From Apostichopus japonicus (lineage: Eukaryota): a stretch of 64,000 bases of DNA. The stretch covers positions 23,210,063 through 23,274,062 of the forward strand of contig NC_092565.1 in assembly GCF_037975245.1 (NCBI RefSeq), given 5' to 3'. Below the pieces are notes generated by a model. The model worked only from the letters and a program-made list of their open reading frames with translations. It was not told the origin of the DNA and did no database searches. Below, piece by piece: positions 4,034 through 56,576 of this stretch (the first letter of the stretch is position 1; every line of letters starts with the position of its first letter). The position numbers and the translations under genes are program-made.

Positions 4034-4451
4034 CAGGGTTGTCCAACCTTTTGCAGAGGAGGGCCACATGGAATGATTATGATGAAGTAGGGGGCCGTAT
4101 GAACCCTTCGCTCGATTTTTTCGACTTTTTGCGCGAAGCCTAAGGCAACAAAATGTGAGCACTGCGCGTGGAGCGCACTAACTTATTTTCCTTCCTGATA
4201 AAACAGTCCAGCCGGCCCCCCTCCCCTCCCCTCCCCTCCGCTGAGAGAGTGTCATACAAACTGACCTGTATGAAGTTTTTTTTTTGGACCCAGAAGGTTC
4301 GAATGATTGATTATATAGCTTCAAATTGTTATCAATAAATCTGCTCACTAAATTTCACACCGTAGAGCCTCTCTGGCGGGCCGGACGCAACCCTGCGGCG
4401 GGCCGGACTGTGGCCAGCGGGCCGTAGGTTGGACAACCCTGGTCTACAGCA
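4034..4451. mobile_element. hAT-like MITE (418 bp) nested in the TIR element
   Basis: Perfect 15-bp TIR CAGGGTTGTCCAACC (4034-4048) and its reverse complement (4437-4451). Perfect 8-bp direct target-site duplication GTCTACAG at 4026-4033 and 4452-4459. An 8-bp TSD with a CAGGG terminus is the hAT signature. Confidence 0.75.
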
Positions 4452-5886: not shown

Positions 5887-6081
5887 TGCGCAGTGGTTAA
5901 CGCAGTGGTTAACGGTGCCTTTCAATCATAAGGTCCCGAGTTTGTGTCACTCCAAGATTAATGTATGTCGTCCAGTTACAGAGTTGTTGACAATTGACAA
6001 TTCATAATCATGGTCGCTAAAAATGAATCTAAGAGACTGACTTCGATCAGCTTGCGGCTTTGCGGCTTTGCGGCTTTGATC
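5887..6081 (+). mobile_element. tRNA-derived SINE copy (5'-truncated). A 3' fragment at 6082-6150 lies between this copy and the next.
   Basis: Shares its body with the full copy at 21574-21761 (minus strand): ...cagtggttaacggtgcctttcaatcataaggtcccgagtttgtgtcactccaagattaatgtatgtcgtccagttacagag...gactgacttcgatcagcttgcggctttg, followed by a (cggctttg)n tail. Confidence 0.55.
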
Positions 6082-6150
6082 AGCCGCATTCATAATCATG
6101 GTCGCTAAAAATGAATCTAAGAGACTGACTTCGATCAGCTTTGCGGCTTT

Positions 6151-6325
6151 GCGCAGTGGTTAACGGTGCCTTTCAATCATAAGGTCCCGAGTTTGTGTCA
6201 CTCCAAGATTAATGTATGTCGTCCAGTTACAGAGTTGTTGACAATTGACAATTCATAATCATGGTCGCTAAAAATGAATCTAAGAGACTGACTTCGATCA
6301 GCTTGCGGCTTTGATAAGCCAATGA
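6151..6325 (+). mobile_element. tRNA-derived SINE copy (5'-truncated). Its 3' end and flank gataagccaatga are identical to those of the 21574 copy.
   Basis: Same family as the 5887 copy. Ends ...gcttgcggctttgataagccaatga. Confidence 0.55.
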
Positions 6326-8973: not shown

Positions 8974-9024
8974 ACAACTAATGAAGAGCATGATGAAGTA
9001 CCTCAGGAGGAAATGAATACTATG
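8974..9024 (+). CDS. 51-nt cassette exon copy 3
   Basis: Identical exon and splice context. Confidence 0.45.
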
Positions 9025-10300
9025 GTATGTACCATAATATTTTGGTAAATTAATTTAAGACAATAATTATAGGTATGGGTATTAAACTATACAAGCTAGA
9101 ATACACAATAGATGTAATCTATATACCCTAAGAATATAAAATATAACAGAATATAAATCCCTCATATAACAGGTGAAAATATTCTACTGAACCCGTCCCA
9201 TACCAAGCAGTTTTGAGGCTGCGAAACAAAGGATCGACCAGAAATATAGAAATAGCATAGTCTGAAGCAGTATCTATACGCTGTGTCAGCTATGATGATT
9301 TTCACACACATGATTCAGTGCATGGTACATTCAATTGTTGGTCAGAATCGGGACATACATACAGTCAAATGTGGTGCAAACTGTAGATCTGCATTGTTTC
9401 ACACAGATGATTTGAGGATGGATACTTTTGTGGGGCTATGATAAATATCACAAACACAATTCAATAGTACACCTTTCTTTAAGATAGTATACAAATTATA
9501 GATGGTTATGAGTGCAATAGTGCAAATATTTCATGAGTTAAAAGATGGAAAGTTCCATTCAACGAGGCGCAGCTGAGTTGAATGGAACAAATTACATTTT
9601 TCAACGAATGTAATATTTGTACTATTGCACAAATGGAAACCATTCATTATTTGTTTCATACAACACCTTCAAATTTGGATATAATTGGATGTAAAATGCA
9701 CTCATGCAACAGATTTTTTTGAACAGACAGGTTTCTATGCTCTCTTACCATTGAAAAAAGTGCTATCAAAAAAGTATAGCACATGGTTCTATTTCATAGA
9801 GTGCAATAGAGCGGATTTTGCATGCAATCGACGAGCAATGGACCAATCAAATGGCCGGAATATAATTAGGTGTTGTATAATATCTAAACACCTTCAGTCG
9901 TGGTAGCTGTATGTTAACATTATTACACTTTTATGACAGTATTGGTCAGTCAAGACATTTAGGGCAGAGGTGCCATTCAGAAGCTGTGTATCCCACTTTG
10001 TCATCACAAGGTTCCTAGATCAAGCTACTGTCAGACTATACAGTAGGTTAATCCTCTTCAGCCATTGATGAGCATATATGGCCTAATACGGGGGAAATGT
10101 TCCATCAGATAAGGAAGGCAATTGGTGGTCCCCGGAACCGAGTGGTAATAATATTGATAATACACTCCTGTATGGATGCCAATTGTGTGGACATTCTTGA
10201 TCATTTTAATAACACACCCCAATATAGACAGGTCCTAAATCTCTAAGCATTATATTTATTTCAATCAAGATCAATAATTCACTGATTGTACTTTTTGCAG

Positions 10301-10351
10301 ACAACTAATGAAGAGCATGATGAAGTACCTCAGGAGGAAATGAATACTATG
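10301..10351 (+). CDS. 51-nt cassette exon copy 4
   Basis: Identical exon and splice context. Confidence 0.45.
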
Positions 10352-11627
10352 GTATGTACCATAATATTTTGGTAAATTAATTTAAGACAATAATTATAGG
10401 TATGGGTATTAAACTATACAAGCTAGAATACACAATAGATGTAATCTATATACCCTAAGAATATAAAATATAACAGAATATAAATCCCTCATATAACAGG
10501 TGAAAATATTCTACTGAACCCGTCCCATACCAAGCAGTTTTGAGGCTGCGAAACAAAGGATCGACCAGAAATATAGAAATAGCATAGTCTGAAGCAGTAT
10601 CTATACGCTGTGTCAGCTATGATGATTTTCACACACATGATTCAGTGCATGGTACATTCAATTGTTGGTCAGAATCGGGACATACATACAGTCAAATGTG
10701 GTGCAAACTGTAGATTTGCATTGTTTCACACAGATGATTTGAGGATGGATACTTTTGTGGGGCTATGGTAAATTTCACAAACATGATTCAATAGTACACC
10801 TTTCTTTAAGATAGTATACAAATTATAGATGGTTATGAGTGCAATAGTGCAAATATTTCATGAGTTAAAAGATGGAAAGTTCCATTCAACGAGGCGCAGC
10901 TGAGTTGAATGGAACAAATTACATTTTTCAACGAATGTAATATTTGTACTATTGCACAAATGGAAACCATTCATTATTTGTTTCATACAACACCTTCAAA
11001 TTTGGATATAATTGGATGTAAAATGCACTCATGCAACAGATTTTTTTGAACAGACAGGTTTCTATGCTCTCTTACCATTGAAAAAAGTGCTATCAAAAAA
11101 GTATAGCACATGGTTCTATTTCATAGAGTGCAATAGAGCGGATTTTGCATGCAATCGACGAGCAATGGACCAATCAAATGGCCGGAATATAATTAGGTGT
11201 TGTATAATATCTAAACACCTTCAGTCGTGGTAGCTGTATGTTAACATTATTACACTTTTATGACAGTATTGGTCAGTCAAGACATTTAGGGCAGAGGTGC
11301 CATTCAGAAGCTGTGTATCCCACTTTGTCATCACAAGGTTCCTAGATCAAGCTACTGTCAGACTATACAGTAGGTTAATCCTCTTCAGCCATTGATGAGC
11401 ATATATGGCCTAATACGGGGGAAATGTTCCATCAGATAAGGAAGGCAATTGGTGGTCCCCGGAACCGAGTGGTAATAATATTGATAATACACTCCTGTAT
11501 GGATGCCAATTGTGTGGACATTCTTGATCATTTTAATAACACACCCCAATATAGACAGGTCCTAAATCTCTAAGCATTATATTTATTTCAATCAAGATCA
11601 ATAATTCACTGATTGTACTTTTTGCAG

Positions 11628-11678
11628 ACAACTAATGAAGAGCATGATGAAGTACCTCAGGAGGAAATGAATACTATG
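11628..11678 (+). CDS. 51-nt cassette exon copy 5
   Basis: Identical exon and splice context. Confidence 0.45.
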
Positions 11679-12564
11679 GTATGTACCATAATATTTTGGT
11701 AAATTAATTTAAGACAATAATTATAGGTATGGGTATTAAACTATACAAGCTAGAATACACAATAGATGTAATCTATATACCCTAAGAATATAAAATATAA
11801 CAGAATATAAATCCCTCATATAACAGGTGAAAATATTCTACTGAACCCGTCCCATACCAAGCAGTTTTGAGGCTGCGAAACAAAGGATCGACCAGAAATA
11901 TAGAAATAGCATAGTCTGAAGCAGTATCTATACGCTGTGTCAGCTATGATGATTTTCACACACATGATTCAGTGCATGGTACATTCAATTGTTGGTCAGA
12001 ATCGGGACATACATACAGTCAAATGTGGTGCAAACTGTAGATTTGCATTGTTTCACACAGATGATTTGAGGATGGATACTTTTGTGGGGCTATGGTAAAT
12101 TTCACAAACATGATTCAATAAGCCCTAGTACATCTTTTAATTAAATTGTATCTAAACAACGTTAGTTGTGGTAGCTGCATGATAACTATATTACGCTATC
12201 GTGTATTGGTCAGTCAAGACATTTAGGGCAGAGGTGCCATTCAGAAGCTGTGTATCCCACTTTGTCATCACAGGGTTCCTAGATCAAGCTACTGTCAGAC
12301 TATACAGTAGGTTAATCCTCTTCAGCCATTGATGAGCATATATGGCCTAATACGGGGGAAATGTTCCATCAGATAAGGAAGGCAATTGGTGGTCCCCTGA
12401 ACCGAGTGGTAATAATATTGATAATACACTCCTGTATGGATGCCAATTGTGTGGAAATTCTTGATCATTTTAATAACACACCCCAATATAGACAGGTCCT
12501 AAATCTCTAAGCATTATATTTATTTCAATCAAGATCAATAATTCACTGATTGTACTTTTTGCAG

Positions 12565-12615
12565 ACAACTAATGAAGAGCATGTTGAAGTGCCTCAGGAG
12601 GAAATGAATACTATG
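12565..12615 (+). CDS. 51-nt cassette exon copy 6 (variant HVEVP: GAT>GTT, GTA>GTG)
   Basis: Same context. Point variants keep the frame open. Confidence 0.4.
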
Positions 12616-13429
12616 GTATGTACCATAATATTTTGGTAAATTAATTTAAGACAATAATTATAGGTATGGGTATTAAACTATACAAGCTAGAATACACAAT
12701 AGATGTAATCTATATACCCTAAGAATATAAAATATAACAGAATATGCATATTGAATCCCTCATATAACAGGTGAAAATATTCTACTGAACCCGTCCCATA
12801 CCAAGCAGTTTTGATGATTTTCACACACATGATTTAGTGCATGGTACATTCAATTGTTGGTCAGAATCGGGACATACATACAGTCAAATGTGGTGCAAAC
12901 TGTAGATTTGCATTGTTTCACACAGATGATTTGACCATGGATACTTTTGTGGGGCTATGGTAAATTTCACAAACATGATTCAATAAGCCCTAGTACAATT
13001 TTTTTTAAATTGTATCTAAACAACGTCAGTTGTGGTAGCTGCATGTTAACTATATTACGCTATCATGTATTGGTCAGTCAAGACATTTAGGGCAGAGGTG
13101 CCATTCAGAAGCTGTGTATCCCACTTTGTCATCACAAGGTTCCTAGATCAAACTACTGTCAGACTATACCGTAGGTTAAAATTCTCTCCAGCTATGCATT
13201 GAACATATGGCCTCATACGGGGGAAAGGCTCCATCAGATAAAGAATATTGCATTGGTGGTCCCAGGAACAGAGCGGTAATTATTGATATTGTACACACCA
13301 TGTATGGATGCCAATTGTTACATTCTTGATCATTTTAAGAACACATCCCAATAAAGACAGGTCCTAAATCTCTAAGCATTATATTTCTTTCAATCAAGAT
13401 CAATAATTCACTGATTGTACCTTTTGCAG

Positions 13430-13480
13430 ACAACTAATGAAGAGCAGGATGAAGTACCTCAGGAGGAAATGAATACTATG
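13430..13480 (+). CDS. 51-nt cassette exon copy 7 (variant CAT>CAG, H>Q)
   Basis: Same context in a more diverged unit. Confidence 0.4.
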
Positions 13481-14364
13481 GTATGTACTAAAATATTTTG
13501 GTAAATTAATTTAGACAATAATTATAGGCATTGGTATTATACTATATACAAGCTAGAATACACAATATATATACCATAAAAATATAAAATATATCAGAAT
13601 GGGCATATTGAATCCCTCATATAGAACAGGTGAAAATATTCTACTGAACCTGTTCCATACCAAGCAGTTTTGAGGCTGTGAAACAAAGGATCGACCAGAA
13701 ATATAGAAATAGCATAGTCTGAAGCAGTATCTATACGCTGTGTCAGCTATGATGATTTTCACACACATGATTCAGTGCATGGTACATTCAATTGTTGGTC
13801 AGAATCGGGACATACATACAGTCAAATGTGGTGCAAACTGTAGATTTGCATTGTTTCACACAGATGATTTGACCATGGATACTTTTGTGGGGCTGTGGTA
13901 AATTTCACAAACATGATTCAATAAGCCCTAGTACACCTTTTTTTTTAAATTGTATCTAAACAACGTTAGTTGTGGTAGCTGCATGTTAACTATATTACGC
14001 TATCGTGTATTGGTCAGTCAAGACATTTAGGGCAGAGGTGCCATTCAGAAGCTGTGTATCCCACTTTGTCATCACAAGGTTCCTAGATCAAGCTACTGTC
14101 AGACTATACAGTAGGTTAATCCTCTTCAGCCATTGATGAGCATATATGGCCTAATACGGGGGAAATGTTCCATCAGATAAGGCAATTGGTGGTCCCCGGA
14201 ACCGAGTGGTAATTATATTGATAATACACTCCTGTATGGATGCCAATTGTGTGGAAATTCTTGATCATTTTAATAACACACCCCAATATAGACAGGTCCT
14301 AAATCTCTAAGCATTATATTTATTTCAATCAAGATCAATAATTCACTGATTGTACTTTTTGCAG

Positions 14365-14415
14365 ACAACTAATGAAGAGCATGATGAAGTGCCTCAGGAG
14401 GAAATGAATACTATG
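14365..14415 (+). CDS. 51-nt cassette exon copy 8 (silent GTA>GTG)
   Basis: Same context. Confidence 0.4.
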
Positions 14416-15710
14416 GTATGTACCATAATATTTTGGTAAATTAATTTAAGACAATAATTATAGGTATGGGTATTAAACTATACAAGCTAGAATACACAAT
14501 AGATGTAATCTATATACCCTAAGAATATAAAATATAACAGAATATGCATATTGAATCCCTCATATAACAGGTGAAAATATTCTACTGAACCCGTCCCATA
14601 CCAAGCAGTTTTGATGATTTTCACACACATGATTTAGTGCATGGTGCATTCAATTGTTGGTCAGAATCGGGACATACATACAGTCAAATGTGGTGCAAAC
14701 TGTAGATTTGCATTGTTTCACACAGATGATTTGACCATGGATACTTTTGTGGGGCTATGGTAAATTTCACAAACATGATTCAATAAGCCCTAGTACACCT
14801 TTTTTTTAAATTGTATCTAAACAACGTTAGTTGTGGTAGCTGCATGTTAACTATATTACGCTATCGTGTATTGGTCAGTCAAGACATTTAGGGCAGAGGT
14901 GCCATTCAGAAGCTGTGTATCCCACTTTGTCATCACAAGGTTCTTAGATCAAGCTACTGTCAGACTATAGAGTACATGAAGGTTAAAAACCCCTTCAGCC
15001 ATTGATGAGCATATGGCCAAATACGGGAAAGCTTCCATCATGCTAAAATACACAATATATTACTATATAATCTATAACCTAAGAATATAAAATATATCAG
15101 AATGGACATAGTCAATACCTCATATAACAGGTGAAATATTGTACTGTCTACTGAACCCGTCCCATATCAAGCAATTTTTAGGCTGCAAAACAAAGAATCG
15201 GCCAGAAATATAGAAATAGCATGGTCTGAAGCAACAGCTATTATGATGATGGTCATGTCAATCATAGCATTGGAATTCCATATCGGCCTGATAAAAAAAC
15301 TGGACAACTATATTCAGTTTTGCTTACAGGTTCTGCATGAACTAGCTGTAAAGATGTTTGTATTTTGCTCTCCCATATCCATTCAATGAAATGGTTGACT
15401 CGGTACAGGAAGAGTCTCTTATGTTAGACAAATTCACTGATCTATGTTTTGCTCAGAAGCTGATCTTAGGACTGAACCTGTCTTGATGTCCTGGCCTAGT
15501 TGCGTGACCTATTCCTAGGGATTGGGGAAATGTTTTTTTTCTGACACAATATACCTTTTTCTTGTTCTTAGAAAATTCATGTTTTTCTGTTTTAACATAA
15601 CAAATTAAAAAAGTTGATTGTGAAAATAGTTTGATCTGTTATTTTGTTACATTTAAATGTCATTCTAAATATGTTTCATACTTACTTTGTTAATTTTATT
15701 CTTGTTTTAG

Positions 15711-15747
15711 GAAACTGCATGCAAATCAACATCAGTCTCATTCACAG
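15711..15747 (+). CDS. Small exon (ETACKSTSVSFT+G)
   Basis: cttgttttag|GAAACTGC...TTCACAG|gtgagt. Phase chaining with the next exons leaves a single continuous open frame. Confidence 0.4.
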
Positions 15748-15871
15748 GTGAGTTTTATTGTGTTCAATCCGAACAAATTGTTTTAAATACTTTTAGAGCC
15801 ATTTTACTTTTATTGAACTCACTAATTTTTATCAGTTCTGTAAACTGCAAACTTCATTTTCACTCTTTCAG

Positions 15872-15931
15872 AATCCCCAAATGGTGCATTATATTTTGAT
15901 GCTGATCTGAGAAAATACCATCATTCACTTG
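15872..15931 (+). CDS. 60-nt exon (ESPNGALYFDADLRKYHHSL)
   Basis: cactctttcag|AATCCCC...CACTTG|gtaagtg. Only the +2 frame is open, which fits a phase-1 join from 15747. Confidence 0.45.
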
Positions 15932-16146
15932 GTAAGTGAAACAGCATTTAAATAGCCTTTTAATTGTTACCTATTAATTAACAAGTTTTCTTTATGTATT
16001 CTGTTAGATATTTTATGCTATATATATTTCATTATATTTTGATGCCGATCTGAGAAAAATGAAGCCTTTGGACTATTAATTTTTAATGAGAACACTCTCT
16101 TCATTGTCTTTATGACTTATCGATTTTCATTTTTAAATTGCCACAG

Positions 16147-16206
16147 ATAACAACCCCAATGAGCCTGTGTTTTTGGATGAAATGACAGGGAATATGTACT
16201 CATATG
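16147..16206 (+). CDS. 60-nt exon (DNNPNEPVFLDEMTGNMYSY), paralogous in length and periodicity to 15872-15931
   Basis: ccacag|ATAACAACC...CATATG|gtgagtt. Only one frame is open. Confidence 0.45.
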
Positions 16207-16421
16207 GTGAGTTAAATTGACATGTTACCTGAATGTTTATTTAACCGACTGAATGCAAAAGTAACATTTTTGAATTTCTGTAATTACAAAATATTAAGAT
16301 ATTTCAGATATTTTTAGATATTGCTCTATCATGCCTATTTGGTATTGGCTAAACTTATTTACTGTAATAGGAATAGATGTATAATATCCAAAACTTAAAC
16401 AATTATTCTTCATTTCAACAG

Positions 16422-16447
16422 ATATTTGTACTGTATCCTGCCAAGAG
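16422..16447 (+). CDS. 26-nt exon (DICTVSCQE) that restores phase 0
   Basis: catttcaacag|ATATTTG...CAAGAG|gtaaag. Confidence 0.35.
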
Positions 16448-17603
16448 GTAAAGTATATACAATTCTAATTTCCAGGGAAGAAATATTACCAAAATAAATT
16501 TTGTAGTATATTCTTAGCTATTCTTGTCTATGAAAGGAGGTGGTCATTGAAGCATAACATAACCAAAAATAAAAATGTTACTTCCAATTTAACTTTCATG
16601 TACGGAACATGTAAATTCACATGGTAAAATCAATACATGTTTTTTACAATTCAAATCGTGATTTTGGAACATATTCCACAGGCTTGTTTTGGTAAAAACT
16701 TCATCACATGAGTTATAAGGATTTGGAGAAGTTAACTTGAATAAATCCTAACTAAATGTTTTGACTCTGCTCCCACCCCCTCCCCCCTCCACAAAAAAAA
16801 GAGGAAAAAAATAATACATTGCCATATATACAGCATCTCAACAAAAATGTGCTAAATTCATTTCCCCATAGGAATCCTACAATTTTTATCAGTAATATGA
16901 TACTAACATCAGAGGAAAATATTTAAAATTGGAATCTGTCAATTCATGATCATAGAAAAATAGGTTTTGTATCGAAATACACAAGAGATCAAAATAAGCA
17001 GATTTGTAGTAAATGCCCAAAGCTGTACATTCTAAGATTTGGCAGATACAGTATGTGCACGTTGTTGGTACAAACCATCAAAATGTGCTATAATGTACTT
17101 ATGTATATGTTTCTGAAATACACACTGATTAACTATCAATGTATGCATGATATAACATGCATGTCATACCAATTATCTTTGAGGTGTAAGAAACATACTT
17201 TTCCCAAATTCCATGTGGTTTCTTGTTCCACAGCAGAACCACACAACAAGTAAATTTGAAAGAGTATAACTGCTTCCAATCCTGGAGTTTCATTAACAAA
17301 GTATATATATATAAATTTATAAGTTCCTTCAATTTTGCTCTTCAAATAGTAAAATGCTATCAGTTAAACTAAATGCAGCATTGCCTATTCTTTGATTCTA
17401 TTTGTCCAGTAACAAACTGTTCTTCCTATAACAAATGATATGCAAAAAGTGTTAATAGTTACCCTAGGCCTGTATGCATTGCATCTATTGAATCCTTTGA
17501 AATACCAAAGGAGTATGTGCTGTAAATTTGCAAAAATGGCATAGAAATATTGTAGTTGATCACAGTTTAATTTTAGTATTAAATCAATTTATTTGATTTA
17601 CAG

Positions 17604-17660
17604 GAGTATCCTGAACTTCAACCAGTATTTGATAAAATGATGCAGCAAATAGAAGAACAG
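17604..17660 (+). CDS. 57-nt exon (EYPELQPVFDKMMQQIEEQ)
   Basis: tttgatttacag|GAGTATCC...GAACAG|gtaaac. Phase 0. Confidence 0.45.
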
Positions 17661-18114
17661 GTAAACAGTCTTGCATAAATTATAGGCCTATCTCAGTGAA
17701 TGTTTCCCAGCTGTCTTGATGATGCATATCTACAAGTATTAATTATCAGGGGTACTGTTAATTAGCTAAAGACTAGACTTTTAAGTCGCCAAAATGAAAA
17801 GATCTAGTCGCCATGGCCACCAGAATATACTGTATGTGAAAGGTGTGATCAGATTATCTGTGTGAAACTAGAATCTGCAGTTTGCTCCACACATGATAGT
17901 GTCTATGGGTACCATTGGCTTACAATTGCAACTGATCAATGTACCAATGAATCACTTGGCACTCCAGTAATGTTGGAAGGTGAAAGCCAAAGACCAAGAA
18001 TTGGCAGCTAACTAACAATGTCAGGCAATATGTATTGCAGCTGGAGAGTTATATATTGTATATCAACAATGAATTTATATGGTTTATTGATTCACATTAT
18101 TCTACTTCTTGCAG

Positions 18115-18165
18115 ACATCTGATGATGATAGTGACAAAGCTATCTACGAAGAAAATGATTCCAAG
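18115..18165 (+). CDS. 51-nt acidic exon copy 1 (TSDDDSDKAIYEENDSK)
   Basis: cttcttgcag|ACATCTGATGATGATAGTGAC...GATTCCAAG|gtatgtac. Same length and phase as the upstream TTNEEHDEV cassette. Confidence 0.5.
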
Positions 18166-18387
18166 GTATGTACAGTACTACCCTTGCAGTTACAGTAATT
18201 ATTTCAAACCACACTTTTTCAAAAAACAATTGAGTCTCCTATTCCAGTTACAATGCAGATAAATAAATGGAATGGAAATATCACTTGAACAATATGTATT
18301 GCAGCTGTCACCTGGAGAGTTATATATTGTATATCAACAATGAATTTATATATGGTTTATTGATTCACTTTATTCTACTTCTTGCAG

Positions 18388-18438
18388 ACATCTGATGATG
18401 ATAATGACAAAGCTATCTACGAAGAAAATGATTCCAAG
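18388..18438 (+). CDS. 51-nt acidic exon copy 2 (TSDDDNDKAIYEENDSK)
   Basis: Tandem duplicate with the same splice context. Confidence 0.5.
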
Positions 18439-18655
18439 GTATGTACAGTACTACCCTTGCAATTAATTATTTCAAACCACACTTTTTCAAAAAACAATTG
18501 AGTCTCCTATTCCAGTTACAATGCAGATAAATAAATGGAATGGAAATATCACTTGAACAATATGTATTGCAGCTGTCACCTGGAGAGTTATATATTGTAT
18601 ATCAACAATGAATTTATATATGGTTTATTGATTCACTTTATTTTACTTCTTGCAG

Positions 18656-18706
18656 ACATCTGATGATGATAATGACAAAGCTATCTATGAAGAAAATGAT
18701 TCCAAG
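18656..18706 (+). CDS. 51-nt acidic exon copy 3
   Basis: Tandem duplicate with the same splice context. Confidence 0.5.
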
Positions 18707-19477
18707 GTATGTACAGTACTACCCTTGCAGTTAATTATTTCAAACCACACTTTTTCAAAAAAACAATTGAGTCTCCTATTCCAGTTACAATGCAGATAAA
18801 TAAATGGAATGGAAATATCACTTGAACAATATGTATTGCAGCTGTCACCTAGAGAGATTCAAAAACTTACTGGTTTGGATATTTACGAGTGACGAGCTTA
18901 CCTGTCTCCTCACAACCTTAGCACCTCATTCTACCGTGCCTATAAAGTCCTGGTAAAATAATAACACTGTGCGCCCTCTATGACCGAACCCCCCCTCGGT
19001 CACTCCTCACTACTCATGAGACCACTCCTTAAAAGTGGCCTCACGGTCACCGAAATAGGGGTGGCCAGAATCCTCTGGCCACCCCCAAGGACTCCCGTCG
19101 ACTAAACTTCTCAAAGGTGAGCCCTTAACAAAAGGCACTGATGCCTTCCTAGCAGGGAGAGTGTAATCCTCCCCGCCGCAGCGGGTAAGGGGGGGGGGGA
19201 CACTCTCCTGAGCCCTGCAGGCGAAACTACCCCTTTTTCCTAACAAGGAGCCTCATCCTGTAAAGGCCCAACACTTGCTAACCCTAAGACAACTTAGGTG
19301 AGTACGCCTATGAAAAACACAGGGTGCAAAGTTACCCTCACCGATAGACCTGGCCGGTGACTCTTAGTAGTTGTTGGCTCTGTCTATCTGGTGTTGTGCT
19401 TGGAGTCGTGAGCCTAGTCGAACGACTGCTCCCCCGTCCGGCTGTGTCCCACCCCCTCGGGGGAGGGAGGCGGGAAT

Positions 19478-19575
19478 GGAGACAGGTAAGCTCGTCACTC
19501 GTAAATATCCAAACCAGTAAGTTTTGGAATATTTACTTCGCTCCTCGCTTACCTGTCTCCTCACAACCTTAGCAC
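19478..19575. repeat. Internal complementary region (ICR) of the DIRS-like element
   Basis: ggagacaggtaagctcgtcactcgtaaatatccaaaccagtaagtttt is the reverse complement of 18868-18909. ggaatatttacttcgctcctcgcttacctgtctcctcacaaccttagcac is the reverse complement of 25081-25130. Confidence 0.6.
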
Positions 19576-21573
19576 CGAGTGGCACTGCCCGATGGTGGGA
19601 GGCCCGAGGGGTGGGACCAAGTACCAACCGGCTACCACCGCGCTACCAAAAGCTGCCTCGGCGTGTAGAGTGTCAGGTAAGTAACAGGCGACGAACGTAG
19701 TTGGTGTTTTCCACGCTGCCACCTTGAGGATGTCCTGTATCGGGATACCGGCAGAGAGAGCTGTGGAAGCCGAGGCCCCACTGATGTTGTGATCTCTTGG
19801 CCGGGTATCCCCCCATCGTGAACGGGCGGATCATCTCTACTAGCCATCGGGATAGGGTATCCTTGGCGGCTGCTGTTTAAGGTGGTCGTGGCAGGATGAA
19901 AAGGGAGGTTGTTTGTCTCAACTTCTCTGTCCTGTTTAAGTACCACTTCAGTGCCCTGACTGGGCACCATCGCTTGTCCTCAGCCACTGATGAAAGGGTT
20001 TTGATTTCCGGAAAGAAAATGTCCCCGGGCAAGAAAGTCAAGGCCCGGTTCTTGGCAATAAGGGACGGGTCTGGAACTGTCCTCGCCCCATGGCCCTCGA
20101 ATCTGATGTGGTTCTGTTTGGTTGTTAGGGCTTGGAGGTAACTCCTTCACGCTGACGCTACCGCAATGACGAAGAGTGTTTTCTTTGTAAGAGCAGCCAG
20201 GGAAACGTTCCCCGACGATTCGTACAGCGGCCCTGCCAGGGCATGCAGCACTGCTGAGAGCCCCGCAGAGGGGGCTAACTGTCTGACTCGTGGACGGCGA
20301 TGAGCCATGCCTTTGGTGAGCTGGTCAATGTCTGGGTTAATGCCCAGCGTGGAGCCGTCTGGAAAACCAGACGTCCCCGTCTGGGGCCTGTGTGTGGGAC
20401 CTGCGGCCTGGGACCCGGGGTCCGGAGGGAGCCACTAGGATGAGTTTACCCTTGGAGCTGCGAATCTTCCTCAGTATCTGGCTGATCATGCCAAAGGGGG
20501 GGGGGGAAGAATTTAAACCTCTGGTCCGTCTCAAGGCAGGGACCTGGCGCTATGTGGGAGGCTGCAGGTGGGACCGCCTGTTACAAAAGATGGGCAGCCC
20601 ATTGTTGCCCTTTGTCGTAAGCAGGTCTATCAGAGGTATGCCGAACATGTGGAAAAACCTACCGCATGTTCCTTGCGAAGGGTTTACTCGTCGGGGTCGA
20701 GTTGTCCCCTGGGCAGAGCATCGGCCCTCACACTCTCCTTTCTGGCTATATGGGAGACCCATAGGGCCGTGCCAGATTCTGCAGCTGTGGTGACGGTCTC
20801 CCATGCCAGACGGCACAATCTCTCTGCCCTGGAGTCCTGAGAGCGAGGCGGAAGTACATGAAACCTGGTTATCTTTGCAAATAGAGTGTTGGGGCCGATC
20901 CTTTGCCCTGCTGACGCCACTGTGGTGCAGGAAAGTGGTTTCTCTGTATATGCTGCTAAAGAAGTCAAGGACAGTGGCCTGTATGATAACCTTGTTAGCG
21001 CCTGCAGTACAGCAGCACTCGCAGTACTGCTTGCATTACCACAGTACCGCTGATGACCCCTTTAGTTATCAACCAGTTGCAATCAGAAAACCTCTGAAGA
21101 AAAGTAATGCCTTGATGATGTAGACCTAAGCTGTACCCTGTAGGGAGGTTTAATGGAGGTTCTTTCCATGAAAAATAATATTAATAATAATATTGAGGGT
21201 TGAACTGCGCCGGCCTATCTATCGATAACGAAGCCAGAGGCGCTAGCAATATTACCCTGGTCAACAATAACCTGTTAAACAGAGAGAAATCCCTCCTGGA
21301 TGGAAAGACGCAATGGAGATAAAGTGCCTTGCCCAAGGAAACAACAGAATGATCTGGCCAGGACTAAAACCTGCAAGCCTTAGATCACCAGTACACTGCC
21401 TACACCGCTTGACCACAGTGCTCTCCAAAAATTGAGTACTGAATGGATAGTTTGCTTCATCAGAGTCTTAATCAATGCTACAGCTGCTATGTGGCTTTTA
21501 CAACTACAGTATATGTATGTATTTGTGTATGTAATTTAGATCATCCTGCAAGTAGGAACTTGTGAAGAAGCCT

Positions 21574-21761
21574 CATTGGCTTATCAAAGCCGCAAGCTGA
21601 CCAAAGTCAGTCTCGTACATTCATATTTTAATGTCCATGACTATGAATTGTCAACAGCTCTGTAACTGGACAACATACATTAATCTTGGGGTGACTTGAA
21701 CCGGGGACCTTTTGATTGGAAGGCACCGGGTTTAACCACTGAGCTAACTAAGCTACAGCCC
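21574..21761 (-). mobile_element. Full-length tRNA-derived SINE (minus strand), nested in the DIRS-like element
   Basis: Minus-strand 5' head gggctgtagcttagttagctcagtggttaaacccggtgccttccaatcaaaaggtccccggttcaagtcacc carries A-box-like (TAGCTCAGTGG) and B-box-like (GGTTCAAGTC) sequences. Its 3' end cannot pair with its 5' end as an acceptor stem, so it is not a functional tRNA. Its body and tail match the 5887 and 6151 copies. Confidence 0.6.
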
Positions 21762-22052
21762 TACTCACCAGGAACAAACTCCCAACAGGGGATGTGTAGG
21801 GTGGGTTTGTAGAAATTCCACCTCATAAATCCTGGCTGTTTAACGGAGTCCAGGGAGTGACTCAGCAAACACAAAGGCGTTACTAAATGTTTAGTCTTTT
21901 GCTATGATAGCGTTATTAGAGGTGTAAGAAATATGTTACCGAAACCCTTTAGGGGCTATTATTTCAAAACAATTTCCGTTAAGACATTAATATAACATTA
22001 ATATAACGTAATATCTCATAGACATCTTATGTCAACGTTTTATCAACACCAC

Positions 22053-24290
22053 ATTTAACGTAATAAACACGTATTGAATGTTATGATAACGTACCCGTTA
22101 CTTCTCAAATCTCTTCCTGTCGAGATGTGTCCATTTCGTAGTGCAGTAAAGGTATCCAGCTTCCTATTGAAACCACCTAGCGCCTAGGCTAGTCAAGACT
22201 AGGCCATCAGGTGCTACGAAATGCAACTCTGCTTAAGATGTCGGAACATCGAACATTGTTCATAAAGCGCATGCTGTATGTTCGGAGCGTGTTAGCGCTT
22301 GTAACTTGCTGGGGTTGTATCCTACCCCTTTTTCAACTTACTAACGCGTTTGTCTTGGTAATTCACCAAAGAAATAGGAAGAAAGGCTTATTCCATAGGA
22401 TCGCTCACGTAGTCGATAGCTCGTTGCAGTAAAAGTTGAGCTTACACGTGTCAAGCCAGGTGGCTGCTTGGCCCCCCCCTCCTCTCTTAACAAATGTGCC
22501 ACGTTGTACCTTTTTTTCTGGCAGTTTGCCAAGGATCTATGAGCGTTATGTTTCCTGGCACTTTGCCAAGTCTCGAGAAAGTTCTCTTCCTAGCAGTTTG
22601 CCAAGGTTTTAAAGTAAACGGAATACTGTAAGTCATGAGAACCGATTTAAAACCCCTCAGTCTTACGCATTTTAACATGTTCTGGAAGTGGGTTCACCAG
22701 TGTTTTAAACGACAGTGTTTTTAAACACAAGTAAGATTTTAACCTAGGCAAATGGCGATGAATTATGATTAGAGAGGAGTATAATTAGCGAGGAGAATAT
22801 GACCCATGAGTGTCTGCAGGTACTCGATAAATAAACACACATTTGGGATGTGTAGTGGTAGCGGTGTTTTTCCGCAAATGATTCGAACCTGTCGTCGCCG
22901 CTCAAGCTGCTAGTTCCGGGAGGGGGACACTCCCCCTATTCTGGGAAGCGGGAGTAACCGTCCTCTGTAACCCCGAAATCTAGGGGTCGACCTCGTCGTC
23001 TAGGCCGGACAGGTTGCCCGACGCTCTGCAAACCAGGTCGTCCTTGCCGGGGAACAAATCAGGTTCCATTCTTTGGTCTGGGATTGATCGTGGTGTCGCG
23101 GCCGGGCTGGCCGTGGGTTGCGATCGCTCCTCGGCACCGATGTCTGTGTTCGGTGTCTGGGGATAAGTATTTCTCCCTTTGCCGTGGGAACCTGGCTCGG
23201 GGCTGGTTCTCTTTTCGGATTGGGCGCTTGCCCCTGCTACCCCGTTCTGGGGGCCCGGCATTGGTAATCTCGTCGGTTCCCGGCCTCAGGACCGGCCGCG
23301 GCTCCGGTTAGGGGGTCTGCGGGCCGGGCTTCTGCACCTGCTACCCCATTCTGGGGGCCTAGCAGTTGTTAATCTCGTTGTAAATGTTGTTGTAGTTGTA
23401 AATGTTATTGTAAATGTCGCAGTTGTAAATGTTGTTACTCTCGTAGGCTCCCGACTTCGGGACCAGTTTTGGATCCCGTTTGGAGATCTGCGGACCGGGC
23501 TTCTGCCCCTGCGCCCCCGTTCTCGTCGGGCCCGGGCCCTCCGGAGCCAATCTCTGAGGACCCAGCAGTCGATTGTATAGCTCTGGTTCCCGGCTCCGGG
23601 GGCGGTCTCGGATCTGGAGTGAAAACTCGGTTCTGCCTTCCCTTCGAGTCTCGCCGGACCCGGGGTCTCGCCGGACCCGGGGCCTCGCCGGACCCAGGCT
23701 CCCGGAGCCCGTCTCTGTGTGCGTACCACGCCGGGTACCACCACGCCGGTATTCCTCGACCCGGACATTCTGTCCTTTCCGGTGGGATTTTTTTTTTTTT
23801 TTTTTTTTCTCGCCGGACCCGGGCTCCCCGGAGCCTGCTATGGGACCGGCTCCGTTTCAGCGACCCCTCGGTCGTACTCTCTCTCTCGGACCCGAGCTCT
23901 CCGTGGCCTGTAGCCCGCGCTCCATGGGTCTCTCTTGCTGCGACCCGGACTGAGACGTTGCCTCTAGCCCGGCCGAGCCGTGCCTCTTCTCAAGAGGTCT
24001 TTTCTTGGCAGGAGCCTTGCTCCTGCCCTTCCCTCTGGCCGTAATCAACCGGACGTCGCCGGGACCGTTAGGGGTACTCTTTCTCTCTCTCTCCACCTCT
24101 CCTTCGGCCCTCTCCTGGCCACTTTCCTCCACCTCTCTCACCACTTCTCCCTCCTCCTCTCTCTCTCTCTCTTGTCTCTCCTATATCTTTTTCTGGGGCA
24201 CCGATGGCCTAAGGAATCAAGTCCAGCCTGCCCTAAAGCTTGCTTCTTAGACTCGTAAGCCACTGGTCTATCTAGTGCCACTGGGCTGGC
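22053..24290. repeat. Unclassified dispersed repeat X, copy 1 (inside the DIRS-like element)
   Basis: Collinear with 33805-35300: acatttaacgtaa..tgaatgttatgataacgtacccgttac..; the tandem motif tggcagtttgccaagg; the tract gctagttccggg...ccgtgggaacct.gctcgggc..ggtt; and a CT-rich 3' tract. Internal (GCCGGACCCGGGG)n repeats, a T21 run at 23783-23803 and an A11 run at 24395-24408. Confidence 0.6.
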
Positions 24291-25186
24291 GAAAAATTTA
24301 TGCAGACCAGGCATGGGTCCCGTCTGGTGTAGGTTCTACACTTAGGACACAAATCGTGTTCGACCCAGGTTCTGCCTGGCCGAAACATCGAAAGTTAAAA
24401 AAAAAAACTTCAGCTGGTTACGAGACAAACTAAAACGCCCGAATTAAGGAAAGACTAACTCTTAAGCTTACGGAAAAATGCAAACTAGCAAGAGAACGGG
24501 AGAGAACGGGAGGTACATAACGGTGAGTAGAGGTACGTAGCGTAACCTAGCAACGGCAAAATACGAAAAACGCTATGAAGTGGCCTAACAAAATCAACAC
24601 AAGCTGAAAAAGAACATGAGAGAGCGAAATATAGAAGAAGAAATCGTGAATAGAAATACAATGTAGACATGCTATGAACATGAAAATACAACGACACGCC
24701 TATAGCGTGGGGAAGGGAAATTGGCGGGAAACCTAGGCAGTTCGCGGAACTGCTACCCCCGCAAAAAACCTAAGGGCGGAAACGCACTAGGAATAAAAAC
24801 AGTCCCCAAAACCCTCCCTTTCAACAAAAAAGGATACTTATCGGGCTGGAAAGGACTGCAATACTCCTAAGAATCCGAGGAAAGAAACTTCCAAAGATCG
24901 CTAAAGAAAACCAAGACGAAATCCAAGGGAAATATATCCACAAGAAATTCACGTGAAGACACTTTTAATGGTAGAATGAGTAGTGAGGAGTGACCGAGGG
25001 GGGGGGAGGGGTTCGGTCATAGAGGGCGCACAGTGTTATTATTTTACCAGGACTTTATAGGCACGGTAGAATGAGGTGCTAAGGTTGTGAGGAGACAGGT
25101 AAGCGAGGAGCGAAGTAAATTTCTATATTGTATATCAACAATGAATTTATATGGTTTATTGATTCACTTTATTCTACTTCTTGCAG

Positions 25187-25237
25187 ACATCTGATGATGA
25201 TAATGACAAAGCTATCTATGAAGAAAATGATTCCAAG
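25187..25237 (+). CDS. 51-nt acidic exon copy 4, lying to the right of the DIRS-like insertion
   Basis: Identical to copy 3. The unit is separated from the array by the 6.3-kb insertion. Confidence 0.5.
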
Positions 25238-25918
25238 GTATGTACAGTACTACCCTTGCAGTTAATTATTTCAAATCACACTTTTTCAAAAAACAATTGA
25301 GTCTCCTAATATTCCAGTTACAATGCAGATAAATGAATGGAATGGAAATATCACTTGAACTTAATAAGAACCATGATGGCATTAAATTTCATGCATGAGA
25401 AGAGTTAAGGCAATCTGAGTGAATCTCATAGTATATACCAGAACATATATATAGAGAGGCAACATTTCATCAATATGAAGAATTTCTTTCTCACCAATAA
25501 ATGGAGACCTATTAAAGTAGAATCATGAAGCAAACAAACATACCCTTAACTACCTTTAAGTATTAGGCATTAGTGTTGTATTACTGTAGTTCCACTAAAA
25601 TTAGATCAAAATAATAGTCCTTATATTCTTCATAGAAACAACATAAGGAAGCGGTACATATATCCTCCAATCTAAATTATCTGTATGAAATGATGGAAGT
25701 CTGCAGTTGCACCACAACTGACAGTGAGTATGGGTACCACTGACCTACAACTGTATGTTAGTACAATGCATGCATGTGTGTCGCTCAAAAGTATGCATAA
25801 AAAATCGTGTGTGGAAGTAGTGTTACATATAGGATTTAAAAAAATAGTTGATGAGATTTTCATGTCATGGTCTGTCAATTAAACCCAACTTCTGTTTGTA
25901 TAGGAACAAAGCACACTA

Positions 25919-33778: not shown

Positions 33779-33808
33779 CTAACCCTAAGCTAACCCTAGC
33801 TAACCCAC
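33779..33808. repeat. Short interstitial telomere-like tract (CCCTAA-like x3, imperfect)
   Basis: ctaaccctaagctaaccctagctaaccc sits immediately 5' of repeat X copy 2. Confidence 0.4.
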
Positions 33809-35300
33809 ATTTAACGTAAACACGTAATGAATGTTATGATAACGTACCCGTTACTCCTCAAATCTCTCCATGTCGAGACGTGTCAATTTCGTAGTGTAGT
33901 ACAGTAGAAGTATCCAACTTCCTATTGAAACCACCTAGCGCATAGCCACGACTAGGCTATCAGGTGCTACAAAATGCAACTGTGCTTAAAATGTCGGAAC
34001 ATCGAACATTATTCATGAAGCGCATACTGTATGCTCGGAGCGCTTGTACCTTCGCTGGGGTTTTATCCTACCCCTTTTCCAACTTACTAACGCGTTTGTC
34101 TTGGTAATTCACCCAAAAAGTAGAGAGAGAGGCTTATTCCATGGGATCGCTCACGTAGTCGACAGCTCGTTGCAGCAAACGTTGAGCTTACACGTGTCAA
34201 TCCAGGTGACTGCTCGCCCCCCCCCCCCCCTCTCATAACAAATATACAGCGCGGGTATATCTTCTTGGCAGTTTGCCAAGGTACTAAAAAGGGCTTCGTT
34301 TTCCTGGCACTTTGCCAAGTTTCGAGAACGTTCTCTTCCTGGCAGTTTGCCAAGGTACTACGAGACTGTACTAGAATCGCTTCAGTTTTGCGCATTTTGA
34401 CATGCTCTAGAGGGGGTTCCACAAGCGTTTTAAACAACAAAACACAAGTAAGGTTTCAAACCTAGACATATGGCGATGAATTATAATGAGAGAGAAGTAT
34501 AATTAGCGAGGAGAATATGACCCATGAATGCCCAGGAAATCTATGTCATGTCCTGGTTTCTGCTGGTACTCGTTAAACACACATTTGGGATGTGTAGTGA
34601 TAAATGGTGTAGCGATTGCAGTGTCTTTCCGCAATTGATTCGAACCTGTCGTTGCAGCTCAAGCTGCTAGTTCCGGGGGGCAACACTCCCCTGATGAAAG
34701 AGACTTTTCCCCCTCTTGGAAGCGGGATTAACTTTGAGGCTGGGGATACGTATATCTCCGTTTGCCGTGGGAACCTCGCTCGGGCCGGCTTTCTTTTCGG
34801 ATTGGGCGTTTGCCCTTACTACCCCGTTCTGGGGGCCCAGCAGTTGTTGATCTCATCGGTTCCCGGCTCCGGGACCGGCTCCTGGGATCCGGAGTGGAAC
34901 CTCGGTTCCGCACTCCCTGTGAGGGCTCGCCGGACCCGTGGTCTCGTCGGACCCGGGCCCCCGGAGCCCATCTCGGTGTGCGTACCTAGCCGGGTACCAC
35001 TCCCCTCGACCTGGACATTCTGTCCGTTCCGGTCGGAATTTCAAATGGGCTATTTATTGGCCTTGAGCCTTGCCCTTGCCTTCACCCTTGGTCATAGAAT
35101 CCGGACGGTGCCGGGACCTTGGGGGCAATATCTCTTTCTCCTCTCTCTCTCTCCTCCGGCCTCTCTCGCCGGACTCGGGCTCCCGGAGCCTATCTTCCTC
35201 AAAATAACCCCCCTATCATCCCAGGGAGGGATCGCTGGACCTCCCATCTACCACAACGTTTTAAGTTTTACCTCTTAAAGTGCCCCCAGTCAACAGGAGG
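33805..35300. repeat. Repeat X, copy 2. Its 3' end grades into the satellite array.
   Basis: See copy 1. Its end (35196-35250, ctcaaaataacccccctatcatcccagggagggatcgc) matches the first ~40 bp of the satellite monomer. Confidence 0.6.
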
Positions 35301-35539
35301 GGGTTTCAAGAAGACGTATTTTTTCACAGTTTTCAAAACAAAAACACCTATTTTCCCATAAATAGAATTCATAATGATAAATAACCTTTCCTGATAAGAA
35401 AATTACACGGTCTTGGTAGCTAACGCAAGCTGATAGTCTCTGCTACTTACCCTGAAATGGTGTTGTCGCTGAAATCCCATGTGTGGGCGTGAGGAGGGTC
35501 CAAGAGAGGTCCAAAAGCGAGATTCCTCCTTATACTCTC

Positions 35540-43215: not shown

Positions 43216-43225
43216 CACAATGAAA

Positions 43226-56450: not shown

Positions 56451-56576
<126 letters not shown>

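What the first reader, a model, noticed from the sequence alone, without database searches (positions are those of the whole stretch)
18857..25130. DIRS-type element architecture (non-identical ITRs plus an internal complementary region) with no coding capacity: a candidate non-autonomous DIRS derivative
The two ~150-bp termini are inverted repeats whose outer ~35 bp differ from each other. A 98-bp internal block (19478-19575) is exactly revcomp(left outer end) joined to revcomp(right outer end). This is the ICR configuration that DIRS1-like retrotransposons use to regenerate their ends via a circular intermediate. The insertion makes no target-site duplication, consistent with tyrosine-recombinase-mediated integration. 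The ITR cores differ only in a homopolymer length, which suggests recent transposition. Despite this, the 6.3-kb interior has no long ORF. It is GC-rich with many short overlapping ORFs in all frames, and it carries a SINE and ~2.2 kb of an unrelated dispersed repeat. Non-autonomous DIRS-like elements mobilised in trans are poorly documented. Because the ICR lies ~460 bp inside the left end, the element is in minus orientation if the canonical layout holds.
Basis: partly seen in the sequence, partly recalled or inferred. Interest (0 to 1): 0.75.

Follow-up and report, generated by a model that had tools for sequence, protein, structure and literature searches.

The report
Defective DIRS retrotransposon, copied in trans
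This is a 6.3-kb sea-cucumber DIRS-type retrotransposon that has lost its reverse transcriptase and has a dead recombinase gene, yet was copied to at least three genomic sites, so it is an ordinary broken parasite borrowing enzymes from intact relatives, a situation rarely documented for this class.

Summary
Window 18857-25120 (6264 bp) is one insertion. It has ~150-bp inverted terminal repeats with non-identical outer ends. A 99-bp internal complementary region (19478-19576) equals revcomp(left end, 52/53) joined to revcomp(right end, 46/46). A neighbouring uninterrupted unit of the host 268-bp tandem repeat serves as an empty site: exact ends, no target-site duplication.

It is a DIRS1-like element on the minus strand, but it is not devoid of coding sequence. 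It keeps frameshifted remnants of gag, RNase H C-terminus/methyltransferase-like domain and tyrosine recombinase (80% identical to an Apostichopus japonicus protein). The RT domain is absent.

A. japonicus contigs hold a 6.5-kb sibling with the same termini/ICR and gag-RT-RH-MT-YR. They also hold two more copies of this defective derivative, ~99% identical, at unrelated loci. All three copies share the deletions, a SINE-like insert, two premature stops and a lost catalytic Arg. The element was therefore copied after it had died, which implies mobilisation in trans.

Termini and ICR are 92-100% conserved against coding relatives, while the interior is 48-90%.

New member of a known kind, modest interest.

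The parts
25105..25120 (-). 5' terminus of the element (sense strand = window minus strand): 16-nt divergent outer part of the left ITR, ATTTACTTCGCTCCTC
   Evidence: It is 100% identical to the 5' ends of L001, L002-B and L003 copies and is complementary to ICR half 19531-19576.
24969..25104 (-). 5' ITR, conserved part
   Evidence: Inverted repeat with 18896-19045. The first ~100 nt are 94-100% identical to coding relatives.
23830..24388 (-). gag pseudogene remnant (aa 13-203 of the 303-aa gag ORF of L001)
   Evidence: tblastn, 79% and 56% identity, E 4e-46. The window copy has a private 145-bp deletion near 23928 relative to L003.
22983..23829 (-). GC-rich low-complexity/tandem-repeat region corresponding to the second (ORFx) reading frame of the full-length relative. 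A recognisable remnant lies at 23132-22983.
   Evidence: tblastn of ORFx aa 119-167, 48%, E 4e-4. Internal repeats (D3-D6, D8-D10).
20888..22982 (-). About 2.1 kb of non-coding filler occupying the place of the rest of ORFx, RT and the N-terminal part of RNase H. No RT homology.
   Evidence: The RT-RH ORF of L001 gives no tblastn hit here. Pfam finds nothing. The same filler is present at 98-99% identity in L002 and L003 copies.
21512..21760 (-). SINE-like dispersed repeat inside the filler. By eye it has a tRNA-like A/B-box head at 21760-21690. It has the same orientation as the element.
   Evidence: Matches window 5896-6370 (82-85%) and independent sites L004 16270-16468 and L006 12309-12549 (82-87%). 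ARAGORN and Rfam do not call it.
22049..22935 (.). Segment of the filler shared with a second, ITR-less fragment at window 33805-34691
   Evidence: blastn 78% over 942 columns.
20409..20887 (-). RNase H C-terminal part and methyltransferase-like domain, frameshifted (motifs HIARKESVRADALPR, IPLIDLL, LILVAPSGP)
   Evidence: tblastn to P0012 aa 309-449 and L001 pol (E 1e-14 to 3e-20). A private 124-181-bp deletion at 20832/20833 removes the SDNT..YINRQGGT motif that L002 and L003 retain.
19572..20371 (-). Tyrosine recombinase pseudogene, aa 70-337 of P0001. It carries two in-frame stops and a frameshift, and the catalytic HxxR Arg is replaced by Ser. The ~130 codons between the MT domain and YR aa 70 are deleted.
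   Evidence: tblastn 80% identity, E 5e-112. Alignment with L001, L002-B and L002-D. The lesions are shared by all three defective copies.
19531..19576 (-). ICR half complementary to the 5' terminus (46/46). It overlaps the end of the YR reading frame.
   Evidence: I3. 100% conserved in L001, L002 and L003.
19478..19530 (-). ICR half complementary to the 3' terminus (52/53)
   Evidence: I2. 100% conserved across subfamilies.
19046..19477 (-). Spacer between the ICR and the 3' ITR
   Evidence: 48-89% identical to relatives. A comparable spacer of ~445 bp is present in L001.
18896..19045 (-). 3' ITR, conserved part
18857..18895 (-). 3' terminus: 15-nt divergent ITR part (18881-18895) plus 24-nt right extension (18857-18880). 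The element ends ...TTTTTGAAT.
   Evidence: One private substitution relative to the ICR and to sibling copies.
18041..18856 (+). Host 268-bp tandem repeat (continues at 25121-25390). The intact unit junction 18587|18588 serves as the empty site.

Best explanation
Window 18857-25120 is a copy, on the minus strand, of a non-autonomous deletion derivative of a DIRS1-like tyrosine-recombinase retrotransposon. The host is a sea cucumber, most probably Apostichopus japonicus.

The ancestor of this derivative had already lost its RT domain and about 130 codons between the MT and YR domains. It had also acquired ~2 kb of filler including a SINE-like repeat, and two stop codons plus a catalytic-residue change in YR. 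It was nevertheless copied to at least three loci.

Inferred mechanism, following the Cappello/Poulter-Goodwin DIRS model:
1. Transcription starts inside the 5' ITR and yields an RNA lacking the outermost ends.
2. GAG and RT/RNase H supplied by coding relatives make a single-stranded cDNA.
3. The ICR, which is the exact reverse complement of the 3'-end/5'-end circle junction, anneals to both cDNA ends. It templates the missing unique extensions and aligns the ends for joining.
4. The resulting circle is made double-stranded and inserted by a relative's tyrosine recombinase, without a target-site duplication.

Shown here: the architecture, the homology, the exact no-TSD insertion, the shared defects among dispersed copies, and the selective conservation of termini and ICR.
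Inferred: transcription, reverse transcription in trans, the circular intermediate and YR-mediated integration.
For: - ITR/ICR geometry, with the ICR equal to the reverse complement of the circle junction.
- Exact insertion with zero TSD against a paralogous empty site.
- Minus-strand YR remnant, 80% identical to A. japonicus P0001, with its reading frame ending in the ICR.
- RNase H/MT and gag remnants in canonical DIRS order.
- Sibling L001 5204-11741 has identical outer termini and ICR and carries gag, RVT_1 (E 1.6e-22), RT_RNaseH, MT-like and a 337-aa YR.
- L003 13484-20040 (complete) and L002 13266-17672 (5'-truncated) are 98.9-99.3% identical to the window copy over matched positions.
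- All three share the same deletion junction, SINE-like insert, TGA and TAA stops and Arg-to-Ser change.
- Flanks are unrelated, and no alignment crosses the element borders.
- Against coding relatives, termini are 92-100% and the ICR block 100% conserved, versus 48-90% elsewhere.
- The ICR is experimentally essential in Dictyostelium DIRS-1, and its RT acts in trans (PMC7192593).
Against: - Only three copies of the derivative could be reached. Genome-wide copy number is unknown.
- No fully intact master was demonstrated. L001's pol has two apparent frameshifts, L002-B lacks gag, and L005 was only checked for ORF lengths.
- There is no transcript or cDNA evidence.
- The published rule that DIRS1-like elements are flanked by the same trinucleotide as the circular junction (PMC3266345) is not seen. 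5' flanks end in taa/gta/gaa/att and 3' flanks begin aac/atc/ata/aat/ctc.
- In Dictyostelium a truncated DIRS-1 gave cDNA in trans, but a complete transposition cycle could not be shown.
- The species of the window was not directly verified.
Confidence: 0.85

Rival explanations
1. An autonomous DIRS copy inserted here and decayed in place. It was never mobilised as a defective unit.
For: The element contains recognisable gag, RNase H/MT and YR remnants, and the window copy has private deletions.
Against: The major lesions are identical in three copies at unrelated loci that differ by only ~1% in substitutions. These lesions are the absent RT, the MT/YR deletion junction, the SINE-like insert, two stops and the Arg-to-Ser change. 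Independent decay cannot reproduce them.
Confidence: 0.03
2. The copies arose by DNA-level duplication (segmental duplication, ectopic recombination or gene conversion), not by transposition.
For: In L002 the derivative is 5'-truncated and abuts another DIRS copy in a way that is not a simple nested insertion. This shows that rearrangements do occur in DIRS clusters.
Against: Homology stops exactly at both termini in the window and in L003, and at the 3' terminus in L002. The flanks are unrelated. The window insertion is base-exact against an empty-site paralog.
Confidence: 0.05
3. The element moves as DNA. A relative's tyrosine recombinase excises and reinserts it as a double-stranded circle (Crypton-like), without reverse transcription.
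For: Integration without a TSD and a palindromic AATATT circle junction fit YR chemistry. The derivative lacks RT.
Against: The ICR, which has a role only in regenerating ends from a sub-genomic cDNA, is 100% conserved over ~150 nt while neighbouring sequence has diverged. The termini match the ICR in every copy. Copy number has increased. All coding relatives carry RT/RNase H.
Confidence: 0.05
4. A TIR DNA transposon or a local inverted duplication.
For: Terminal inverted repeats of ~150 bp.
Against: There is no TSD and no transposase. The ends are non-identical and are repeated in an ICR. YR, RNase H and gag remnants are present. It is a multi-copy family with RT-bearing relatives.
Confidence: 0.01

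Closest known systems
DIRS1-like retrotransposons of deuterostomes (e.g. SkoDIRS1 of Saccoglossus, SpDIRS of Strongylocentrotus; Piednoel et al. 2011, PMC3266345)
   Same: The fine structure of the termini matches: a 15-16-nt divergent ITR part, a ~130-150-nt conserved ITR, a right extension (24 nt here) and a two-part ICR (46+53 nt). The element starts with ATT and makes no TSD. Its ~6.3-6.5 kb length, gag-pol(RT-RH-MT)-YR content and GC-rich interior also agree.
   Different: This copy lacks RT and has no intact ORF. No 3-bp overlap of the two ICR halves is evident, and no shared flanking trinucleotide. The host is a holothurian, where DIRS elements have only been counted at class level.
Dictyostelium discoideum DIRS-1 (Cappello et al. 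1985; Malicki et al. 2020, PMC7192593)
   Same: Non-identical inverted terminal repeats whose outer sequences are repeated side by side in an ICR near the 3' end. In DIRS-1 the ICR is 88 bp (33+55); here it is 99 bp (46+53). The ICR is experimentally required, and RT acts in trans. Elements cluster with and insert next to one another (compare L002).
   Different: In DIRS-1 the ICR lies close to the right repeat, whereas here a ~430-bp spacer intervenes. Protein similarity was not tested directly. Full trans-mobilisation of a truncated DIRS-1 was not achieved experimentally, whereas here it is inferred from natural copies.
TOC1 of Chlamydomonas reinhardtii, described as a non-autonomous DIRS-order retrotransposon (PMC9940879)
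   Same: A multi-kb element of the DIRS order without its own functional proteins that is nevertheless mobile.
   Different: From my own knowledge, TOC1 belongs to the PAT-like/split-direct-repeat branch, not the ITR+ICR DIRS1-like branch. The hosts are algal versus animal. There is no sequence relationship.
LARD/TRIM-type non-autonomous LTR retrotransposons (e.g. Dasheng/RIRE2)
   Same: Large internally non-coding derivatives. They retain only the terminal cis-acting sequences of an autonomous partner and are propagated in trans.
   Different: They have direct LTRs, DDE integrase and a 4-6-bp TSD. Here there are ITRs with an ICR, a tyrosine recombinase and no TSD.

Membership tests
DIRS1-like superfamily (order DIRS) | Inverted terminal repeats with non-identical outer ends | tested here: met
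   18896-19045 pairs with 24969-25104. The unique outer ends are 39 and 16 nt.
DIRS1-like superfamily (order DIRS) | Internal complementary region made of two adjacent halves complementary to the two termini, located near the 3' end downstream of or overlapping the YR ORF | tested here: met
   19531-19576 matches the 5' end 46/46 and 19478-19530 matches the 3' end 52/53. The YR reading frame ends inside the ICR.
DIRS1-like superfamily (order DIRS) | Integration without target-site duplication | tested here: met
   Empty-site paralog at 18587|18588. No TSD at L003 or L001 either.
DIRS1-like superfamily (order DIRS) | Tyrosine recombinase coding region | tested here: met
   Present as a pseudogene: 20371-19572 versus P0001, 80% identity, E 5e-112. 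Related proteins hit Phage_int_SAM_1 above or near threshold. The gene is inactivated in this copy.
DIRS1-like superfamily (order DIRS) | Reverse transcriptase / RNase H | tested here: not met
   There is no RT homology anywhere in the window copy, and only the RNase H C-terminal part remains. The family does have it: L001 hits RVT_1 at E 1.6e-22 and RT_RNaseH at 27.3 bits, and L005 and L006 gene models hit RVT_1. The window copy is therefore a derivative, not an autonomous member.
DIRS1-like superfamily (order DIRS) | Methyltransferase-like domain after RNase H (distinguishes DIRS1-like/PAT from Ngaro/VIPER) | tested here: inconclusive
   Remnant at 20714-20409 aligns to P0012 aa 349-449 at 41%. 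Only a weak Pfam Dam hit was found in the related P0004 (E 0.012, below cut-off).
DIRS1-like superfamily (order DIRS) | Element begins and ends with the same NTT trinucleotide, complementary to a 3-bp circular junction shared with the target | tested here: inconclusive
   The element begins ATT (the commonest case) and the junction reads AAT|ATT. However, the sense strand ends AAT, and the flanks show no consistent trinucleotide.
Non-autonomous derivative of an autonomous family | No functional element-encoded proteins | tested here: met
   Longest ORF is 191 aa. RT is absent. YR has stops, a frameshift and a lost catalytic Arg.
Non-autonomous derivative of an autonomous family | Several copies at different loci sharing the same inactivating lesions | tested here: met
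   Window, L003 and L002-D are 98.9-99.3% identical, share the lesions and have unrelated flanks.
Non-autonomous derivative of an autonomous family | Shares cis-acting ends with a coding partner present in the same genome | tested here: met
   The outer 46 and 53 nt and the ICR are 100% identical to L001 and L002-B. Whether an intact partner exists is not established.
Ngaro / PAT-like YR retrotransposons | Split direct repeats instead of ITR plus ICR | tested here: not met
   The terminal repeats are inverted. The only long direct repeat involving the ends is the 30-nt ITR piece within the ICR (D14).
TIR DNA transposon | TSD flanking identical TIR ends, and a transposase or a MITE-like interior | tested here: not met
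   No TSD and non-identical outer ends. Retroelement and YR remnants lie inside.

The most novel reading that the evidence does not exclude
The most novel reading not excluded is this. The element belongs to a recently active, RT-less and YR-dead DIRS1-like family in an animal that completes full retrotransposition cycles purely in trans while carrying a SINE passenger. On this reading, its comparison with coding relatives delimits the minimal cis requirements of DIRS retrotransposition: about 100 nt at each terminus and a ~150-nt ICR block stay 92-100% identical while everything else diverges. That would supply natural evidence for the complete trans-complementation that the Dictyostelium helper/donor experiment could not demonstrate.
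Probability: 0.6. Interest if true: 0.45.

Novelty: new member of a known kind. Interest (0 to 1): 0.3.

Why it matters
DIRS elements are among the less-studied groups of retrotransposons, and their replication model rests mainly on one Dictyostelium element. Three things here are useful to that field.

- A clean, base-exact insertion with an empty-site control.
- Termini that can be read directly against the ICR.
- A set of dispersed copies that share inactivating lesions.

Together these give comparative evidence in an echinoderm that all DIRS functions can be supplied in trans. They also suggest that the termini plus the ICR block are the sequences under constraint.

For annotation, the case shows that DIRS-derived repeats without an RT domain will be missed by protein-based TE classifiers. 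In sea-cucumber genomes such repeats are likely to be logged as 'unknown'. Beyond that the element is an ordinary decayed transposon.

Tried and rejected
- Pfam scan of the raw three minus-strand frames found nothing useful. The remnants only became visible through homologous A. japonicus proteins.
- Rfam (gathering thresholds on the whole window, E-value mode on the element) and ARAGORN found no RNA family or tRNA. The 'SINE' label therefore rests on its dispersed distribution and on A/B-box-like motifs seen by eye.
- A second homology search with concatenated ORFs of the filler and gag region returned only P0022. That is a chimeric gene model lying on the L003 copy itself. No closer coding master of the window-type 5' region was found.
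- P0002's locus is not on record.
- An early misreading was corrected. Hits from L001 and L002 were mixed because both records were in one file, and this briefly suggested an ITR inside the RNase H region.
- I looked for a conserved flanking trinucleotide or target motif and found none.
- I considered that filler 22049-22980 might be a diverged ORFx or RT. There was no significant protein similarity.
- Nested insertion of L002-B into the L002 derivative was considered and rejected, because B's 5' flank is not derivative sequence.
Full report
**Observation**

- The repeat finder gives an inverted repeat 18896-18995 / 25005-25104 (100 nt, 99%) that continues to about 19045/24969.
- It also gives two further inverted pairs that tile an internal block. 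18857-18909 pairs with 19478-19530 (53 nt, one mismatch). 25075-25120 pairs with 19531-19576 (46 nt, exact).
- The ICR is thus 99 bp. On the element's sense strand it is the exact reverse complement of the junction that would form if the 3' end were joined to the 5' end.
- The unique outer parts of the ends are 39 nt (left in the window) and 16 nt (right).
- Within the first ~127 nt the two ITRs of this copy differ only by an indel in a poly-C tract.

**Boundaries and target site**

The element lies in a 268-bp tandem repeat (18041-18856, continuing after 25120).
- The preceding intact unit reads CACCTGGAGAG|TTATATATTG at 18587|18588.
- The interrupted unit reads CACCTAGAGAG|[18857...25120]|TTCTATATTG.
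- The insertion is therefore exactly 6264 bp. Nothing is duplicated and nothing is lost.

**Coding content**

No ORF exceeds 191 aa, and Pfam sees nothing in the raw frames. The minus-strand translation nevertheless contains frameshifted DIRS motifs.

A stitched query retrieves 21 proteins. The best ones are all from Apostichopus japonicus. tblastn with these proteins and with ORFs of a sibling element maps the following remnants:
- YR residues 70-337 of P0001 at 20371-19572 (80% identity, E 5e-112).
- RNase H C-terminus plus the methyltransferase-like domain at 20887-20409.
- gag residues 13-203 at 24388-23830.
- A piece of a second 5' ORF at 23132-22983.

The YR frame runs into the ICR. No RT homology exists in the copy. 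In its place are ~2.1 kb of filler (20888-22982). The filler contains a SINE-like repeat (21512-21760) that also occurs at window 5896-6370 and at independent sites in L004 and L006.

**Relatives**

- L001 (A. japonicus MRZV01001157.1) carries a 6538-bp element at 5204-11741.
  - Its outer termini are identical and its ICR lies at 11007-11105.
  - It has a 303-aa gag ORF, an RT-RNase H frame that hits RVT_1 (E 1.6e-22) and RT_RNaseH, an MT-like region and the 337-aa YR.
  - Its pol is interrupted by two apparent frameshifts, so this particular copy is complete in content but not demonstrably autonomous.
- L002-B (8573-13265) is a gag-less 4.7-kb derivative.
- L004 and L005 carry a more distant subfamily: ~74% in YR, 95-98% in the ICR halves and 81-89% in the ITRs. 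L005 has a 669-aa RVT_1-bearing gene model.

**Is it a non-autonomous family?**

L003 (MRZV01001198.1) 13484-20040 is a complete 6557-bp copy of exactly the window's structure. L002 13266-17672 is a 5'-truncated one.
- Over matched positions the three copies are 98.9-99.3% identical.
- All three share the filler and SINE-like insert, the MT/YR deletion junction, an in-frame TGA and an in-frame TAA in YR, and the replacement of the HxxR arginine by serine.
- Each also has private lesions. The window copy has a 1-nt insertion in YR, a 124-181-bp deletion at 20832/20833 that removes the SDNT..YINRQGGT RNase H motif, and a 145-bp deletion in gag.
- Flanks are unrelated, and no alignment crosses the element borders.

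The element was therefore already defective when it was copied, and it was copied as a unit bounded by its termini. This excludes in-situ decay. It makes segmental duplication unlikely.

**Constraint on cis sequences**

I compared the window copy with L001 and L002-B in 50-nt windows.
- The first ~100 nt are 94-100% identical.
- The last ~110 nt are 92-98% identical.
- The ICR together with the ~50 nt upstream (19618-19469) is 100% identical.
- The rest ranges from 48 to 90% on the 3' side. On the 5' side it mostly falls to 29-88% against L001 and is essentially unalignable with L002-B.

The single mismatch between the window's left terminus and its ICR is private to this copy. This fits ends that are copied from the ICR at each cycle and then drift.

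**Mechanism**

Following the DIRS-1 model summarised in PMC7192593 and PMC3266345, the inferred cycle is:
1. A sub-genomic transcript is made.
2. Reverse transcription produces a single-stranded cDNA.
3. The cDNA ends are restored and juxtaposed on the ICR.
4. The molecule is circularised and the second strand is synthesised.
5. A tyrosine recombinase integrates it without a TSD.

For this derivative every protein must come from relatives. In Dictyostelium the ICR is essential and RT acts in trans on a truncated element. A complete trans cycle could not be observed there. These steps are inferred here, not shown.

One published feature is not met. The flanks do not share a trinucleotide with the circle junction. 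The junction itself is the palindrome AAT|ATT.

**Comparison and novelty**

The terminal fine structure falls within the range tabulated for deuterostome DIRS1-like elements. It consists of a 15-16-nt divergent ITR, a ~130-150-nt conserved ITR, a 24-nt right extension, a 46+53-nt ICR and an ATT start. DIRS1-like elements are known in sea urchins. In holothurians they appear only as class-level RepeatMasker counts. Non-autonomous members of the DIRS order are rarely described. A phrase search found only TOC1 of Chlamydomonas labelled that way. This is therefore a new member of a known kind: a well-resolved example, not a new principle.

**Verdict**

Interest is modest.

Noticed in passing
window 33805-35041: A second, ITR-less and ICR-less fragment. 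It is 75-87% identical to element positions 22049-22935 and 23157-23791, in the same orientation as the window plus strand. It ends about 470 bp before the 204-bp satellite that starts at 35507. This suggests the 'filler' segment 22049-22935 has been linked to the gag/ORFx region for longer than the three young copies have existed.
   Followed up: partly
window 35507-43216: A 204-bp satellite with 37.7 units, 88% matches, and a higher-order periodicity (409 bp and longer).
   Followed up: no
window 1-15250, with 2415-7952: A ~1327-bp tandem repeat is interrupted by a ~5.5-kb insertion bounded by 33-nt inverted repeats (2415-2447 / 7920-7952, 97%). This may be a TIR DNA transposon. It contains a locally duplicated copy of the same SINE-like repeat (5896-6370).
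   Followed up: no
window 18041-18856 and 25121-25390: Each unit of the host 268-bp tandem repeat contains a 51-nt acidic exon-like segment (…TSDDDNDKAIYEENDSK…) flanked by AG and GT. The DIRS copy may therefore sit, antisense, in an intron of a gene with repeated exons. The gene was not identified.
   Followed up: no
L002 8573-17672: A gag-less 4.7-kb DIRS derivative (RT-RH-MT-partial YR, gene model P0012) ends exactly where a 5'-truncated copy of the window-type derivative begins (equivalent to window 23141). Its 5' flank is not derivative sequence, so this is not a simple nested insertion. It may be a recombination product or DIRS-next-to-DIRS integration, as reported for Dictyostelium.
   Followed up: partly
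L003 10001-15798 (gene model P0022): The annotated A. japonicus protein BSL78_23349 is a chimeric model. It joins upstream exons carrying a weak KDZ-transposase hit to translated gag-region sequence of the defective DIRS copy.
   Followed up: partly
L003 17901-18081, L002 15577-15700, window 20832/20833: L003 carries a 57-bp internal duplication within the RNase H remnant. L002 has the unduplicated form, and the window copy has the whole segment deleted. The same short region thus exists in three structural states among ~99% identical copies.
   Followed up: yes
window 21200-21430 (minus strand): A second stretch with tRNA-like A/B-box motifs seen by eye (…GTGGTCAAGCGG…GGTTTTAGTCCTGGCC…) may be another SINE-derived insert. 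No other copy was found in the sequences available.
   Followed up: no
window 56453-56574: An (AT)n microsatellite of 61 units.
   Followed up: no
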